A stretch of 7,488 bases of DNA, from IMG/VR virus record IMGVR_UViG_2663763232_000018; one strand, written 5' to 3'. The stretch's first letter is position 1. Every line of letters begins with the position of its first letter. Of the stretch, positions 1,764 to 7,488 are shown in pieces. The translations under genes and the position numbers were made by a program. The notes under the pieces were generated by a model. That model was not told where the DNA came from. It saw only the letters and a program-made list of their open reading frames with translations, and did no database searches. The stretch comes from a virus. Taxonomy: Duplodnaviria; Heunggongvirae; Uroviricota; Caudoviricetes.

Positions 1764-1967
1764 ATGAGCCAGAAAACAGCCAACCACGAAAACCGGGTGC
1801 GTGAATGTAACGACATTCTGGACACCCATTTAAAAGATATGCAAACGGGCTTCATGATTCGCACCAATAGCGGCGAGTTCATGATCAGGGATAAAAAGCT
1901 GATTAAGGAAATAACCAAAGACGTGGCCCGCCATGTTGATGGTGAATTGCTTAAGCTGGGAATGTGA
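1764..1967 (+). CDS. Hypothetical small protein, 67 aa (MSQKTANHENRV...)
   Basis: ATG at 1764 is 7 nt downstream of SD GAGGT, which overlaps the cox stop. The 126-aa track ORF 1587..1967 starts at a TTG inside cox in another frame and its N-terminal part looks like out-of-frame junk. Confidence 0.6.
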   Translation: MSQKTANHENRVRECNDILDTHLKDMQTGFMIRTNSGEFMIRDKKLIKEITKDVARHVDGELLKLGM

Positions 1968-1974
1968 GGGCGAT

Positions 1975-2217
1975 ATGTTCAATCCACTGAATAAAAGCTA
2001 CACGGCAGTTATCAACCCTTTTTCTGATAACAATACCTATGATGTGCCGACATATATAAAGCCGGGCACTAAAGTAACGGTTGCCATTGATTCGCGTGAG
2101 CAGGAAATATCTATTCTTGCTGCTTACGATTACGGCATTGAAGCACTGAACGAAGAAGGGCGCGAGCAATTAAACCGTTTAATTGCTGATCTTAAAGTGG
2201 CTATCACAGGAAGATGA
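1975..2217 (+). CDS. Hypothetical small protein, 80 aa (MFNPLNKSYTAV...)
   Basis: ATG at 1975 is preceded by SD GAGGG (1966-1970). An alternative in-frame ATG at 1933 lies inside the upstream gene and has no SD. Stop TGA at 2215-2217 overlaps the next start. Confidence 0.6.
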   Translation: MFNPLNKSYTAVINPFSDNNTYDVPTYIKPGTKVTVAIDSREQEISILAAYDYGIEALNEEGREQLNRLIADLKVAITGR

Positions 2218-2957: not shown

Positions 2958-3206
2958 ATGAGTAACGTAGCGAAACTTCAATTAGGTTTTTCACCGCTGA
3001 CTAAAAAAATCCAGTTGGCAAAGATGCGCGATGATGGGGAAGGGCGCCGCCTTCGCGTTGGTAGTGATCCTGGTCGTGATGTGACTAACGAAGCTGCGCA
3101 ATTAGTTTGGCAGTTGGTTATGTCTGAGGGAGGGGAAATCGGCTGGAACCTGTCGGACGGTAGCCGCATGGTTTTGAAAGCTGAGAAAGTGGGGCACGCA
3201 TCATGA
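2958..3206 (+). CDS. Hypothetical small protein, 82 aa (MSNVAKLQLGFSPLTKK...)
   Basis: ATG at 2958 follows SD-like AGAGG. Its stop overlaps the dam start as ATGA (3203-3206). Confidence 0.6.
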   Translation: MSNVAKLQLGFSPLTKKIQLAKMRDDGEGRRLRVGSDPGRDVTNEAAQLVWQLVMSEGGEIGWNLSDGSRMVLKAEKVGHAS

Positions 3207-4186
3207 GCAGCCCTATTATTCGCCCGTTCATCAAATGGGCAGGGGGTAAAACCCGTGTCCTTCCTGACCTGCTGCCGCACCTTCCTAAAGCCGACTGCCT
3301 GATCGAACCGTTCGTAGGCGGCGCATCGGTATTTCTGGCGACTGAGTACCGCCGCTATGTGCTGGCTGATATCAACCCGGATCTTATTAACCTTTATCGG
3401 GAAGTCACCCGTTACCCGGACTTAGTGATCGATGCGGCCCGCGAACTGTTCAACAGCAAGAACAGCCCGCAGGGGTACAACGAAGTCCGCGCCGCGTTCA
3501 ATAAGCAGGTATGTACGGTAAAAAGCGGTGGGTTGCGTTATGGCGTCGAAATGGCGCGCATCATGCGTGCTGCTCAATTCCTGTATCTGAACCGCCACGG
3601 TTATAACGGCTTATGCCGTTACAGCCGTAAGACCGGCTTTAACGTGCCGTTTGGCAAGTATAAGAGCGTCTACTTTCCTGAAAATGAAATCCGCCTGTTT
3701 GCCGAAAAGGCCAACGATACAAAGGCAATATTTCTTTGCGCGCCGTTCCAGCGTTCTCTACAGGTCGTCACGGGTGGCGATGTTCTCGTTTACTGCGATC
3801 CGCCTTACCTGCCTGAAAGCAAAACAGCCGATTTTACCCAATACCACACCGAACCATTCACGGAAGACAACCACCGCCAGTTAGTCCAGGCACTGCTGGA
3901 AGTTAACCGTAAGCATGGCGTGAAGGTTGTCATTTCCAACAGCGACACCGAAGCCACCCGCGCGATTTATCAGCCTTTCAAGATGCACGAAATCAGCGTG
4001 CAACGTTCCGTCAGCACTGACAAAGACAACCGCCAGAAGGCCAAAGAAGTGATCGGCGTGCTGCCTGTCTGCGACTGCTGCGGGCGTTACGGCGGCGGTT
4101 GCCCTGATTGTGGCGCCGTGATGGGTGATGCGACTTACAACGCGATGGTTGCGGCAGGCACGTTTGACGATCTGGAGGCGTTTTAA
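3203..4186 (+). CDS. dam: Dam-family N6-adenine DNA methyltransferase, 327 aa, orphan (no adjacent restriction enzyme), with Cys-rich C-terminal extension
   Basis: N-terminal KWAGGK (residues 11-16), SAM-binding-like EPFVGGASVF, and catalytic DPPY (codons 3797-3808) are seen in the translation and are hallmark motifs of Dam-type MTases. A Cys cluster CDCCGRYGGGCPDC (codons 4070-4111) lies in a C-terminal tail beyond the length of E. coli Dam. Confidence 0.85.
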   Translation: MSSPIIRPFIKWAGGKTRVLPDLLPHLPKADCLIEPFVGGASVFLATEYRRYVLADINPDLINLYREVTRYPDLVIDAARELFNSKNSPQGYNEVRAAFNKQVCTVKSGGLRYGVEMARIMRAAQFLYLNRHGYNGLCRYSRKTGFNVPFGKYKSVYFPENEIRLFAEKANDTKAIFLCAPFQRSLQVVTGGDVLVYCDPPYLPESKTADFTQYHTEPFTEDNHRQLVQALLEVNRKHGVKVVISNSDTEATRAIYQPFKMHEISVQRSVSTDKDNRQKAKEVIGVLPVCDCCGRYGGGCPDCGAVMGDATYNAMVAAGTFDDLEAF

Positions 4187-4365
4187 TGAATCTTGTAGAC
4201 GCCTGGATCGTTGAAATCATAAGCGTGAGTCGTGGCGAGATTGTGCCGTATTGGTTGGTTGAGGCGAAAGTAACAGCTTATGGAAGGGAGTCAATAACCA
4301 CAATTCTGAAGAAATCAGAAGAGGAAGCCAAAGCCGTTAAAGTAGGGGATGTAGTTCAAATATGA
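4186..4365 (+). CDS. Hypothetical small protein, 59 aa (MNLVDAWIVEIISVSRGEIVPYWLVEAKVTAYGRESITTILKKSEEEAKAVKVGDVVQI); not present in the supplied ORF track
   Basis: Hand-translated ORF exactly filling the dam-A gap. Its ATG overlaps the dam stop (TAATG at 4184-4188) and its stop overlaps the A start (ATGA at 4362-4365). It was probably omitted from the track for length. Confidence 0.5.
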   Translation: MNLVDAWIVEIISVSRGEIVPYWLVEAKVTAYGRESITTILKKSEEEAKAVKVGDVVQI

Positions 4366-6719
4366 CCACGGCAACCAGTGGCCGTCGCGCCCCTTCTCCA
4401 CCTCCACCGTATCCGGGCAGCACTGACAATGCTATCCCTTACGCTTATGGCGGGAACAAACCATACCAGCCGATTGGCGTTGATGTAGCGCCGGGGCTGG
4501 ATGGTTTCGACTATCTCACGCCGGACGGCACGCGTAAGCATATTGCGTTCAGTGAACTGGTAGCGGAGGACGAAAAGCCGGAACGCAGTAAGCTGCTGCG
4601 TCGCCGTCTGGCTTCTCTTCCGCAATATGTCCGCCGCCACTTTGCAGCGAAGCTTGATGCGCTGGATGTGAAAGACCGCAAAGCGGCAGATCACTGGCTG
4701 CTTAACACCTTTGAGCGCCACGTATTAACGCGTATTGATAGCGTGAACAGTGTTTACCAGCCTGATACTGTGATGCCCGGCATTCTGCTGCCAATTCGCG
4801 ATCAGCTTTTCCGTATGCTCTGGGCAGGGAAAAAAGAGTTAAAAAGACTGGCTTATACGCTTGCCGATATCTTTACGAGCGAGTTTATACGCGAGTCCGA
4901 TCACCAGTTGGTGCGCACCGGCGATCCTGAGTTCGCGGCGCTTTCTGGCTATGGCCGTATTGCATCGCTGGCAGTGCATCTGAAAACGCCGATCCCCGGT
5001 TGGACAGCTTATTGCAATGAAGAACTTGAAGCGGAGGACGCGTTACGCGCAGTTCTCCGTCTTGAGTCACCGCAGTGGTGGTTAAACCGCCTGCGCCGTA
5101 TCCATGCCCGGTGGCGTGAGCATTTGATGATCGCAGCGGGATACGTCCAGAAAAAATCCTCCCCATACAGTAGCGCCCCGTGCCTTACGGAATGGCTGGC
5201 CCAGAAAAAAGCTAACCGTGAATACCTCAAGGCTATGGAACTGGAAGACCAGGACACGGGCGAGCGCATTTCGCTGATCGATAAAGTCGCCGGCAGTGTT
5301 GCCAATCCGGCCAACCGTCGCCGCGAACTCATGACGAGAATGCGCGGATTTGAAGATCTGGCGAAGCTGGAAGGGCTGGCCGGTGACTTCTACACGCTGA
5401 CAGCGCCTTCCCGCTATCACGCTATGCAGCATAACGGGCGCCGTAATAACAAATACTGTGGCGCGTCGCCGCGTGAGACACAGCAATATCTTTGCAAAGT
5501 CTGGGCGAGAACCCGCGCCGCATGGAAGAGAAAAGGGATCCGCGTCTTTGGTTTCCGCGTGGTCGAACCGCACCACGATGCAACGCCACACTGGCATTTG
5601 CTTCTTTTTATGCGCCCGGAATGCGTCGAGCAGGCGCGCGAAATCTTCCGTAAATATGCCCTGAAAGAAGACGGCAACGAACCGGGAGCGCAGGAAAACC
5701 GCTTTCAGGTCGTGCCGATCGACGATGCCCACGGCAGCGCAACTGGCTACATAGCGAAATACATTTCGAAGAATATCGACGGCTTCGCGCTGGATGGTGA
5801 GAAGGACGACGAAACCGGGGAAGACCTGAAAGAAATGTCACTCCGCGTTAGCGCGTGGGCATCGCGCTGGGCTATTCGTCAGTTTCAGCAGATCGGCGGT
5901 GCGCCGGTCACGGTATATCGCGAACTTCGCCGCTTGGGCGATCGCGAACTGGTGTTACACCCTGAACTGGAAACCGCCCGGCAGGCCGCTAACGGTGGCG
6001 AATGGGATAACTACGTATTAGCCCAGGGTGGCCCGTTGGTTGAGCGCGATAAGCTGCGCATCCGTCTGAATTATGAAACCACTGAAAACGGCAACGCCTA
6101 CGGCGATAACGTCCAGCGAATCACTGGTATTTACTGCCCGATTACGGGCAATGACTCTTTGATCTTCACCCGCACCACTCAATACAAAATCGTGCCGAAG
6201 CGCCAGAGCGCTGACGGTGTGGCCGTTGACGTTGGTTTTTCAGGCGGCAACGCCGCCCCTCGGAGTTCTGTCAATAACTGTACGCGGGATCCCGCGGCAG
6301 GTGCTGACGGTGTTGAACATGCCGATCACGAAGTGGGCGAGACGGTGAATTTTGATGCGCTTTCACGGCAGGAAAAGCGAGAACTGGCACAGAGGCTAAG
6401 TGACGATGTGCGAAGTAAGCGGAAAAAACGGCCACCGGAACGGGAAGACGGGGCCGGGATATCCGTGAAAGAGCAGCAGATCAGTGAACTGCTGGCGCTG
6501 CGTGGGATTGATGCCAGCGCCGGAATGGTCAGATCGATGATGGCCGGTGCGTCAGTGGCGTGCGGCGATCTTGTTATGACAGTGCAGGATGGGCGGCTGG
6601 TATCGCGCAACCGCGCCGCGTCGGGGCTGGATAAGCTGCCGTCGCAGGTGATGGCGGCGAAGCAACAGACAAATAGTCTTATTAACCGAATGAAAAAAGC
6701 CTTTAACGGTGCGTCATAA
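4362..6719 (+). CDS. A: Rolling-circle replication initiation protein gpA (HUH endonuclease superfamily), 785 aa
   Basis: HUH motif in PHWHLLLF (codons 5589-5597); paired catalytic tyrosines in GYIAKYISKNIDG (Tyr codons 5748-5750 and 5760-5762). Other blocks (TLTAPSRYH, VVEPHHDATPHWH, AWASRWAIRQF, RTTQYKIVPK, AAPRSSVNNC) match my recollection of P2 gpA. Confidence 0.9.
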   Translation: MTTATSGRRAPSPPPPYPGSTDNAIPYAYGGNKPYQPIGVDVAPGLDGFDYLTPDGTRKHIAFSELVAEDEKPERSKLLRRRLASLPQYVRRHFAAKLDALDVKDRKAADHWLLNTFERHVLTRIDSVNSVYQPDTVMPGILLPIRDQLFRMLWAGKKELKRLAYTLADIFTSEFIRESDHQLVRTGDPEFAALSGYGRIASLAVHLKTPIPGWTAYCNEELEAEDALRAVLRLESPQWWLNRLRRIHARWREHLMIAAGYVQKKSSPYSSAPCLTEWLAQKKANREYLKAMELEDQDTGERISLIDKVAGSVANPANRRRELMTRMRGFEDLAKLEGLAGDFYTLTAPSRYHAMQHNGRRNNKYCGASPRETQQYLCKVWARTRAAWKRKGIRVFGFRVVEPHHDATPHWHLLLFMRPECVEQAREIFRKYALKEDGNEPGAQENRFQVVPIDDAHGSATGYIAKYISKNIDGFALDGEKDDETGEDLKEMSLRVSAWASRWAIRQFQQIGGAPVTVYRELRRLGDRELVLHPELETARQAANGGEWDNYVLAQGGPLVERDKLRIRLNYETTENGNAYGDNVQRITGIYCPITGNDSLIFTRTTQYKIVPKRQSADGVAVDVGFSGGNAAPRSSVNNCTRDPAAGADGVEHADHEVGETVNFDALSRQEKRELAQRLSDDVRSKRKKRPPEREDGAGISVKEQQISELLALRGIDASAGMVRSMMAGASVACGDLVMTVQDGRLVSRNRAASGLDKLPSQVMAAKQQTNSLINRMKKAFNGAS
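6258..6274 (+). other. Candidate origin-of-replication nick region inside gene A (CCTCGGAGTTCTGTCAA)
   Basis: In P2 the ori lies within the A coding region. This stretch encodes the conserved AAPRSSVNNC block and closely resembles the P2 ori nick-site sequence as I remember it (one mismatch). That memory was not verified, so the call is tentative. Confidence 0.35.
6283..6296. repeat. Perfect 14-bp palindrome CGCGGGATCCCGCG with a central GATC, inside gene A
   Basis: Self-complementarity verified base by base. It lies 9 bp downstream of the candidate ori nick sequence. Confidence 0.85.
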
Positions 6720-6771
6720 CAGCGTGCCGGGGCTTCGCTTATTCATTTTCAGAAGAAACAGGAGTGACAGC

Positions 6772-7488
6772 ATGAGCAAAATTACCAGAGAACGCGCAGC
6801 AAAAATTGCAGCAGGCGGCGGATATAACTTTGATGAGGTGGAGGAGCTGGCGCGTATCGCGCTGGCATCGCTCGAAGCGGAGGAGTCAGGGCGAAATCCC
6901 GTGCTGGCCTATGCAGACAGTTACCGCGATATGGCTAAGCAGGGTGTTGAATCTATTCCTGTATGGAGCGTAATTACCGATCTGGAAAGAAATATCGCCC
7001 CGCTATACTCCGCCCCGCCAGCGCCGGTAGTTCCGGCAGAGCTTCATCCTGATACGCTGAAACTGGTGACCGACTTCAGCTCCGCCCTGGCTGAGAAGTT
7101 GTACAAGGCTCAATTAAAATATGGCTATGACGCGGACTGGAAACAAGATGGTTGGCCAAGCCAATGCCAGGCAGACTTTCAACAGCATATAGCTAAGGGA
7201 GACCCCCGGGATGTTGCCGCTTACTGTGCATTTATGTGGTATCACGGCTGGAAAACTGAGCCAGCGCCGGTATCGCTGCCTGACGAGCAACATAGCGAAC
7301 GCTTCAACTGGACACTTGGGCAGTGGGCTGAACATGTTGGGGGTCATTACCAGGGAAATGATCCGGCAAACTATTACGAGTTCGGCTCATTCATGGCGGT
7401 CGCTGCAATGCTGTGCCAATTCGGCACCGTTCAGCAAAAAATTGGATGGAACGCCTGCCGCGCCGCCATGGTTAACGCAGGCCAGTGA
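6772..7488 (+). CDS. Hypothetical two-domain protein, 238 aa, unknown function
   Basis: ATG at 6772 has a strong SD AGGAG (6760-6764) 7 nt upstream. The track start at 6709 is a GTG overlapping the end of A. The translation shows an acidic N-terminal region and a Trp/aromatic-rich C-terminal region (KYGYDADWKQDGW, AAYCAFMWYHGW) separated by a Pro/Ala linker (APPAPVVPAELHP). Stop TGA at 7486-7488. Confidence 0.7.
   Translation: MSKITRERAAKIAAGGGYNFDEVEELARIALASLEAEESGRNPVLAYADSYRDMAKQGVESIPVWSVITDLERNIAPLYSAPPAPVVPAELHPDTLKLVTDFSSALAEKLYKAQLKYGYDADWKQDGWPSQCQADFQQHIAKGDPRDVAAYCAFMWYHGWKTEPAPVSLPDEQHSERFNWTLGQWAEHVGGHYQGNDPANYYEFGSFMAVAAMLCQFGTVQQKIGWNACRAAMVNAGQ

What the first reader, a model, noticed from the sequence alone, without database searches (positions are those of the whole stretch)
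4186..4365. Untracked 59-aa ORF exactly bridging dam and A with overlapping stop/start codons at both ends
Hand translation from the ATG at 4186 gives a 59-codon ORF ending at the TGA at 4363-4365. Its start overlaps the dam stop and its stop overlaps the A start, a pattern expected for a real, translationally coupled gene rather than a chance ORF. It is absent from the supplied track, probably because of a length cutoff. A small protein made stoichiometrically with the replication initiator could be a replication accessory factor.
Basis: seen in the sequence. Interest (0 to 1): 0.5.

Follow-up and report, generated by a model that had tools for sequence, protein, structure and literature searches.

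The report
Small conserved phage gene between dam and A
The 59-codon reading frame is a real small phage gene, already listed as a "hypothetical protein" in public genomes. It encodes a tiny beta-barrel protein found in many unrelated phages, so it looks like a portable accessory gene rather than a dedicated helper of the replication initiator.

Summary
ORF 4186-4365 (+) is 59 codons. Its ATG shares one base with the dam stop (TAATG) and its TGA overlaps the A start (ATGA). A GGAGG lies 7 nt upstream.

It is a real gene:
- It matches PHROG 8110 (unknown function).
- A profile search finds 84 relatives at 25-55% identity, nearly all 58-62 aa.

It is not new. Enterobacter phage phiT5282H annotates it as gp18, and NCBI's PGAP pipeline calls it a hypothetical protein (WP_016246746.1) in about 20 of 5,426 complete E. 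coli genomes.

The "replication accessory factor" idea is weakly supported. Two more P2-like lineages keep a homologue between dam and A. However, sister prophages whose matched part of A is 96-97% identical carry unrelated genes in that slot (DUF4406, DUF3850, methyltransferases). Homologues also sit in phages without gpA, such as ICP1, lambdoid, Aeromonas and Pseudomonas phages. The gene is AT-richer than its flanks (GC3 42% vs 60-63%) and the family is acidic.

Best reading: a horizontally mobile early accessory cassette that also passes ribosomes from dam to A. Its biochemical function remains unknown. Interest is low.

The parts
4186..4365 (+). orf59: 59-codon protein-coding gene (stop included), member of PHROG 8110, predicted mini OB-like beta-barrel
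   Evidence: ORF and translation. PHROG 8110 at E=2.7e-12 over residues 1-56. 84 family members. AF2 pLDDT 88.9. Annotated as a hypothetical protein in phiT5282H and in E. coli.
4174..4178 (+). Shine-Dalgarno GGAGG, 7 nt upstream of the orf59 ATG, inside the last codons of dam
   Evidence: Read from the sequence. Comparable GGAG/AGGAG motifs precede most of the distant homologues examined.
4184..4188 (+). TAATG junction: the dam stop (4184-4186) shares one base with the orf59 start (4186-4188)
   Evidence: Identical in 17 related loci.
4362..4365 (+). ATGA junction: the A start (4362-4364) overlaps the orf59 stop (4363-4365)
   Evidence: The same ATGA junction occurs in L030/L031, whose homologue is 39% identical. 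The nearest SD-like GGGGA (4345-4349) is 12 nt from the A ATG, so A probably depends on reinitiation (inference).
4163..4215 (+). Predicted mRNA hairpin that pairs the end of dam and part of the SD with orf59 codons 4-10. It is a possible coupling device and is unproven.
   Evidence: MFE -21.9 kcal/mol, z=-4.4, 0 of 200 shuffles as stable. It is weaker in relatives (-16.5 kcal/mol) and absent in the distant P2-like homologues. There is no covariation, and 7 of the 9 variable pairs are simply broken.
3203..4186 (+). dam (D12-class N6-adenine DNA methyltransferase), the upstream gene of the coupled series
   Evidence: Pfam PF02086 at E=5e-63.
4362..6719 (+). gene A (P2-type rolling-circle replication initiator / nickase), the downstream gene of the coupled series
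   Evidence: Pfam PF05840 Phage_GPA at E=5.7e-106.

Best explanation
orf59 is a real, translated early gene of a P2-like (Peduoviridae) prophage. It encodes a 59-residue, single-domain, acidic beta-barrel protein of OB-fold type. The protein belongs to a family of unknown function that is widespread in phages (PHROG 8110).

The gene is a horizontally mobile accessory cassette sitting in a variable slot between dam and A. It is not a fixed partner of the replication initiator.

Shown:
- The gene, its junctions and its SD.
- The family and the fold class.
- The variability of the slot.

Inferred:
- Ribosomes finishing dam start orf59 (TAATG plus GGAGG).
- Ribosomes finishing orf59 reinitiate at A (ATGA, with no well-spaced SD for A). 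Whatever cassette fills the slot would thus serve as the relay that sets the low level of the initiator.
- The protein itself acts independently of gpA as a small binding module made early alongside DNA-modification and replication enzymes.

My rough split for its target is:
- A host or phage protein (host-takeover or anti-defence type role): about 0.35.
- Single-stranded nucleic acid: about 0.3.
- A gpA-specific role: about 0.1.
- Something else: about 0.25.
For: Gene reality:
- Only one open frame, and 1.2% of shuffles stay open.
- Junctions and length are invariant in 17 relatives.
- PHROG 8110 at E=2.7e-12.
- An exhaustive HMMER scan gives 13 full-length relatives of 58-72 aa at 37-55% identity, plus a 93%-identical one, a truncated one and two spurious repeat proteins.
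- The profile search gives 84 members.
- Most homologues examined have SD motifs.

Fold:
- AF2 pLDDT 88.9 for all-round beta1-3, helix, beta4.
- BFVD shows the same fold in ICP1 ORF214 and in Klebsiella and Bacillus phage proteins, all uncharacterised.

Cassette nature:
- GC is 43% and GC3 42%, against dam 54%/63% and A 56%/60%.
- The dam-A slot holds other genes in related prophages: a second methyltransferase in SEN5; DUF4406, or a C5-methyltransferase next to A; DUF3850 plus a hypothetical protein; PAPS reductase plus a homologue.
- Only 20 of 5,426 complete E. coli genomes carry it.

Independence from gpA, from the positions of homologues elsewhere:
- Upstream of DNA ligase in ICP1, in all 82 Vibrio phage records matched (ICP1 and close relatives).
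- After O and helicase in a lambdoid Providencia phage.
- Upstream of Erf/exonuclease/NinB in Pseudomonas phage AF.
- First gene of an early operon that also encodes PolA.
- In arrays of small genes.
- No shared neighbouring gene.

Coupling into A is kept whatever fills the slot: the upstream stop overlaps the A start in SEN5, L030, L045, L046 and L047.
Against: - No expression data exist.
- Within the close clade the substitution pattern does not look like a coding gene. There are 17 variable sites, split 6/4/7 by codon position, and pN/pS is 0.40, against 0.34 and 0.73 in the wrong frames. Selection on the protein is therefore shown only by the distant homologues.
- Three P2-like lineages at 39-43% identity keep the gene between dam and A. 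That could reflect a functional tie to A or Dam rather than mere ancestry.
- The ligand split is inference, based on the family's acidic pI (median 5.1) and on residue patterns.
Confidence: 0.72

Rival explanations
1. One reading: orf59 is a replication accessory factor that works with gpA. For example, a mini-SSB/PriB-like protein could hold the displaced single strand or help load gpA at ori, made in fixed proportion to gpA through coupling.
For: - The gene sits immediately upstream of A with overlapping codons in this clade and in a lineage only 39% identical. It also lies between dam and A in Klebsiella phage 3LV2017.
- The OB-type fold is shared with SSB, PriB, RPA and the PolC OB domain.
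- Some non-P2 homologues sit beside replication, repair or recombination genes: O and helicase, DNA ligase, Erf/exonuclease.
Against: - Prophages whose matched part of A is 96-97% identical lack it and carry unrelated genes in the slot (SEN5).
- A tblastn search of 50,697 phage records found it only in phiT5282H, plus one weak partial match in an unannotated contig.
- Most homologues are in phages without a gpA-type initiator, and some sit next to terminase or tail genes.
- The family is acidic (87% of members have pI<7). It gives no SSB or other Pfam hit.
- No conserved partner gene, and no similarity of neighbouring genes to the gpA N-terminus.
Confidence: 0.12
2. orf59 is a host-takeover or anti-defence protein. 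It would be a small acidic early protein that binds and blocks a host factor, carried in a slot that otherwise holds DNA-modification (anti-restriction type) genes.
For: - Small and acidic.
- Early-operon position, foreign base composition and patchy distribution.
- Other occupants of the slot are Dam-like and C5 methyltransferases, PAPS reductase, DUF4406 and DUF3850.
- Many homologues lie in arrays of small early genes of unknown function.
Against: - No similarity to any characterised inhibitor.
- It is present in all 82 matched Vibrio phage records (ICP1 and close relatives), next to DNA ligase. That looks more like a housekeeping role than an arms-race gene.
- Nothing here tests binding. 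PADLOC holds defence proteins, not counter-defence proteins, so its silence says nothing.
Confidence: 0.3
3. The frame is not a functional protein gene here. On this view the 177 bases matter only as a spacer or RNA element (for example the SD-sequestering hairpin) that couples dam to A, or the ORF is a chance or decaying frame.
For: - In close relatives synonymous divergence is lower than in the flanks and pN/pS is about 0.4-1.
- A stable hairpin is predicted at the dam/orf59 junction.
Against: - Homologues at 25-55% identity keep their length and start motif in unrelated genomes.
- The fold is predicted with confidence.
- The low divergence is largely explained by the few sites available and by a mosaic breakpoint near 4026.
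- The 251-nt region as a whole is not unusually structured (z=-1.0).
- The hairpin shows no covariation, and there is no Rfam match.
Confidence: 0.04

Closest known systems
Enterobacter phage phiT5282H gp18 (YP_009879858.1) and E. coli WP_016246746.1, both annotated 'hypothetical protein'
   Same: The same gene: 59 aa, 97% identical, in the same dam-orf-A position with the same overlaps.
   Different: Nothing of substance. Those records give no function either.
PHROG 8110 (phage protein family of unknown function), including Vibrio phage ICP1 ORF214
   Same: Full-length profile match at E=2.7e-12. ICP1 ORF214 is 40% identical to orf59 in the structural alignment, with the same predicted fold (TM 0.86). 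Relatives share the N-terminal MNLID motif, the YG(R)ES turn and the KVG motif.
   Different: ICP1 is a lytic 125-kb myovirus without gpA, and its copy sits upstream of DNA ligase. No member of the family has been characterised.
OB-fold small barrels (eS28, IF1/eIF1A, SSB/PriB/RPA domains, Mop, PAN/Mpa N-domains)
   Different: Sequence identity in those matches is only 4-28% (mostly under 21%), and there is no sequence-level match to PDB or Pfam. The protein is shorter than most OB domains, with a short last strand. It is acidic rather than basic. No ligand can be inferred.
Non-essential small ORFs of the P2/186 early operon upstream of A (from my own knowledge of P2: orf80-83)
   Same: Small genes of unknown function packed between the early regulators and A in one operon, with overlapping stops and starts.
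   Different: No sequence relationship was detected. The tblastn search of the phage collection hit only phiT5282H plus one weak partial match in an unannotated contig. Equivalence to any P2 ORF was not shown.

Membership tests
PHROG 8110 | Significant full-length match to the family profile | tested here: met
   E=2.7e-12, residues 1-56 against profile positions 1-56 of 59.
PHROG 8110 / orf59 family | Conserved length (about 58-62 aa) and the N-terminal MNL(I/V)D motif, the YG turn and the C-terminal KVG motif | tested here: met
   Alignments A1 and A3: M1, N2 and G54 are invariant, D5 and G33 are at least 90% conserved. 70 of 83 members are 58-62 aa.
OB-fold | Five-stranded closed beta-barrel with a helix between strands 3 and 4 | tested here: inconclusive
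Single-stranded DNA-binding proteins (SSB/PriB type) | Sequence membership (Pfam SSB and related families) | tested here: not met
   No Pfam hit for the protein or for 44 family members. No PDB sequence hit.
Single-stranded DNA-binding proteins (SSB/PriB type) | Basic and aromatic nucleic-acid-binding face; ssDNA binding | not testable with these tools
   The family is acidic (median pI 5.1), which argues weakly against this. Binding needs a gel-shift assay.
Translationally coupled gene in an operon | Stop/start overlap with the neighbours on the same strand, with no promoter or terminator in between | tested here: met
   TAATG and ATGA junctions. No + strand promoter-like or terminator-like site between 3782 and 6211.
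Translationally coupled gene in an operon | Downstream translation depends on upstream translation | not testable with these tools
   Needs stop-codon or reporter experiments. A lacks a well-spaced SD (GGGGA is 12 nt upstream), which is suggestive only.
gpA-specific replication accessory protein | Co-occurrence with a gpA-type initiator across genomes | tested here: not met
   Present next to gpA in three P2-like lineages. Absent from sister prophages with near-identical A. Present in many phages without gpA in the neighbourhood.
Known anti-phage defence proteins (PADLOC) | Match to a defence-system model | tested here: not met
   No PADLOC hit at E<=0.01.

The most novel reading that the evidence does not exclude
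The orf59 family (PHROG 8110, about 58-62 aa, invariant MN-start, acidic mini OB-barrel) could be a so far unrecognised class of phage early effectors with one conserved macromolecular target. That target might be a host replication, repair or defence protein, or a nucleic-acid intermediate. Very different phages (P2-like, ICP1, lambdoid, Aeromonas, Pseudomonas) would then each have recruited it into their DNA-metabolism modules. In P2-like phages its position would additionally tune gpA synthesis.
Probability: 0.2. Interest if true: 0.45.

Novelty: already known. Interest (0 to 1): 0.2.

Why it matters
It matters little as a discovery. The gene is already called in RefSeq phage and E. coli records, and its family already exists in PHROGs, both without a function.

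Three points are still useful:
The same gene is also missed in at least one published phage genome, Klebsiella phage 3LV2017.
- It assigns an OB-type fold to a phage family that has no Pfam entry.
- It documents that the dam-A junction of P2-like phages is a swap-in cassette slot where every occupant keeps a stop/start overlap with A. That pattern suggests A is translated mainly by reinitiation.

If the protein turned out to have a defined target, it would add one more small phage effector family.

Tried and rejected
- dN/dS on close relatives was uninformative. There are only 17 variable sites, spread 6/4/7 over codon positions, and pN/pS does not single out the true frame.
- The apparently low synonymous divergence is partly explained by a mosaic breakpoint near 4026 in L018/L035.
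- Pfam, NCBIfam and PADLOC gave nothing for the protein, and Pfam gave nothing for 44 family members. The two NCBIfam hits at E about 0.05 are noise.
- A PDB sequence profile search gave nothing; the spectrin SH3 hit at E=0.9 is noise.
- Foldseek against PDB gave nothing significant.
- The afdb50 library was not available.
- P0020 (884 aa) and P0022 (428 aa) from the exhaustive search are repeat proteins that matched spuriously. The longer 'fusions' P0048 and P0057 contain an internal MNLID/VNLVD and are probably over-extended gene calls.
- A search for a conserved neighbouring gene, or for similarity of neighbours to the gpA N-terminus or the dam C-terminus, found none beyond near-identical phages.
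- Rfam gave no match. The 251-nt region is not unusually structured. The junction hairpin has no covariation support.
The scan with A2 found only three species, all with close copies.
- Literature searches for phiT5282H, ICP1 ORF214 and ICP1 gp213, plus a general search on P2-like phages, found nothing on function.

Full report
**Observation.** The window is the early region of a P2-like (Peduoviridae) prophage. On the minus strand it carries the integrase (1-981) and an HTH repressor (1051-1410). On the plus strand it carries cox (1472-1753), DUF4761, DUF7446 (2958-3206), a D12-class Dam methyltransferase (3203-4186), the ORF in question (4186-4365), the gpA replication initiator (4362-6719) and an open-ended ORF from 6709.

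The ORF is exactly as described: 59 codons, a TAATG overlap with the dam stop and an ATGA overlap with the A start. A GGAGG lies 7 nt upstream of its ATG. Only this one of the six frames is open, and only 1.2% of shuffles of the AT-rich interior stay open. Stop/start overlaps are common throughout this operon.

**Is it a gene?** Yes, on four lines of evidence.
- All 17 close relatives retrieved keep the frame, the length and both junctions. They comprise phiT5282H, 16 IMG/VR contigs and later Salmonella, Enterobacter soli and Mixta genomes.
- The protein matches PHROG 8110 (unknown function) over its full length at E=2.7e-12.
- An exhaustive HMMER scan of 1.84 billion representatives found 16 proteins at E<=0.001. 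Thirteen of them are full-length relatives of 58-72 aa at 37-55% identity. The rest are a 93%-identical copy, a truncated copy and two spurious repeat proteins. A profile search found 84 members, 70 of the 83 tabulated being 58-62 aa. They share an invariant MN start, a near-invariant D5, a YG turn and a KVG motif. Most homologues examined have a good SD.
- AlphaFold2 with an 18-sequence alignment gives pLDDT 88.9 in all five models.

dN/dS within the close clade is uninformative. There are 17 variable sites, split 6/4/7 by codon position, and pN/pS is 0.40. The ORF's low synonymous divergence relative to its flanks is partly a mosaic effect, with a breakpoint near 4026 in L018/L035. Evidence for selection on the protein therefore rests on the distant homologues.

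**Is it new?** No. RefSeq annotates it as phiT5282H gp18. PGAP calls it a hypothetical protein, WP_016246746.1, in about 20 of 5,426 complete E. coli genomes. It has no Pfam, NCBIfam or PADLOC family. No paper was found on its function.

**Where does it live?** Among P2-like phages, two further divergent lineages keep a homologue between dam and A.
- L030/L031 (39% identical) has the order dam - PAPS reductase - homologue - A, with 4-nt overlaps at both ends.
- Klebsiella phage 3LV2017 has a 57-codon homologue starting inside the end of dam. It is not annotated there, and about 670 bp of other sequence follows before A.

The slot is nevertheless variable.
- SEN5 has a second methyltransferase.
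- Some E. coli prophages have DUF4406, DUF3850 plus a hypothetical protein, or a C5-methyltransferase next to A.
- In these prophages the matched part of A is 96-97% identical.
- Wherever the junction was read, the occupant's stop overlaps the A start.

orf59 has 43% GC (GC3 42%), against 54-56% (GC3 60-63%) for dam and A. That fits horizontal acquisition.

Outside P2-like phages, homologues are found in varied positions:
- upstream of DNA ligase in ICP1, in all 82 Vibrio phage records matched;
- directly after O and helicase in a lambdoid Providencia phage;
- upstream of Erf/exonuclease/NinB in Pseudomonas phage AF;
- as the first gene of an early operon that also encodes PolA and an ssDNA-binding protein;
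- in runs of small unknown early genes;
- occasionally beside structural genes.

No neighbouring gene is shared across these contexts, and no neighbour resembles the gpA N-terminus.

**How it most likely works.** The shown facts are a real small gene, OB-type fold class, a mobile cassette and a tightly overlapped position. The rest is inference.

Ribosomes finishing dam probably start orf59, helped by a strong SD. Ribosomes finishing orf59 probably reinitiate at A. The only SD-like motif for A (GGGGA, formed by the conserved Gly-Asp codons) is 12 nt away. Unrelated cassettes keep the same overlap with A. The slot occupant therefore probably acts as the translational relay into A, whatever it encodes.

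The protein itself most likely acts independently of gpA, as a small binding module made early. I lean slightly towards a protein target over single-stranded nucleic acid, because the family is acidic and, from the alternation pattern around the near-invariant V25, the conserved aromatic residues appear to face the core. This lean is weak.

A predicted hairpin (4163-4215, -21.9 kcal/mol, z=-4.4) would bury part of the SD and make orf59 translation depend on dam translation. It is weaker in relatives and absent in distant P2-like homologues. It shows no covariation: 7 of 9 variable pairs are simply broken. I record it as a possibility only.

**Verdict.** The specific proposal of a replication accessory factor is not supported by the gene's distribution. 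The gene is an already annotated, ordinary phage hypothetical protein. The added value here is a fold class, a description of the family and the cassette-slot picture. Interest is low (0.2).

Noticed in passing
L036:3501-3674 (Klebsiella phage 3LV2017, NC_047817.1 about 4857-5030): A 57-codon homologue of orf59 (MNTLDAVVTRVLDVRPYRHFWIVEVEVLSWGRYSNTTIIRDSEKEARQVQPGDTVTI) starts inside the last 14 nt of the annotated dam. It is not annotated in the RefSeq record. The 827-bp stretch up to A carries no annotated gene at all.
   Followed up: partly
window 4186-4365 compared with L002, L030, L045, L046: The dam-A junction of P2-like prophages is a variable cassette slot. Its occupants include orf59, a second methyltransferase, DUF4406, DUF3850 plus a hypothetical protein, a C5-methyltransferase, and PAPS reductase plus an orf59 homologue. 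Wherever the junction was read, the occupant's stop codon overlaps the A start.
   Followed up: partly
window 4163-4215: A stable predicted RNA hairpin (-21.9 kcal/mol, z=-4.4) pairs the end of dam and part of the orf59 SD with orf59 codons 4-10. Each arm carries a GATC site. There is no covariation support.
   Followed up: yes
window 4012-4183 (dam residues about 270-327): Dam has a tail of about 58 residues beyond the D12 methyltransferase domain (Pfam covers residues 12-269). The tail contains a Cys-rich stretch, CDCCGRYGGGCPDCG, that looks like a small zinc-binding motif. Its function is not known.
   Followed up: no
window about 4026; L018 and L035 (Mixta mediterraneensis): There is a mosaic breakpoint inside dam. 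Upstream of about 4026 these relatives are about 50-80% identical to the window. From about 4026 through orf59 and into A they are about 90-97% identical. Recombination therefore joins a different dam body to the same dam tail, orf59 and A block.
   Followed up: partly
L045 and L047 (E. coli 2020N21-246 and 0H26): In several E. coli prophages the dam upstream of the slot is annotated as a split pseudogene, while orf59 (or DUF4406) and A remain intact.
   Followed up: no
window 6709-7488: An open-ended ORF starts with GTG inside the end of A. It matches only PHROGs of unknown function (16519, 4838), with no Pfam or PADLOC hit. At the same place phiT5282H carries an AAA ATPase and an S8 peptidase, so this is probably another variable cargo site after A.
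   Followed up: partly
window 4186-4365: orf59 is compositionally foreign: GC 43% and GC3 42%, against 54-56% and 60-63% for dam and A. Two other small early ORFs (2183-2422 and 2730-2942) are similarly AT-rich.
   Followed up: yes
window 1933-2217 and 2419-2589: Two further small plus-strand ORFs of the early operon have no Pfam or PHROG match. phiT5282H annotates a 'cell division inhibitor' (Fil-like) at about the position of the second one.
   Followed up: no
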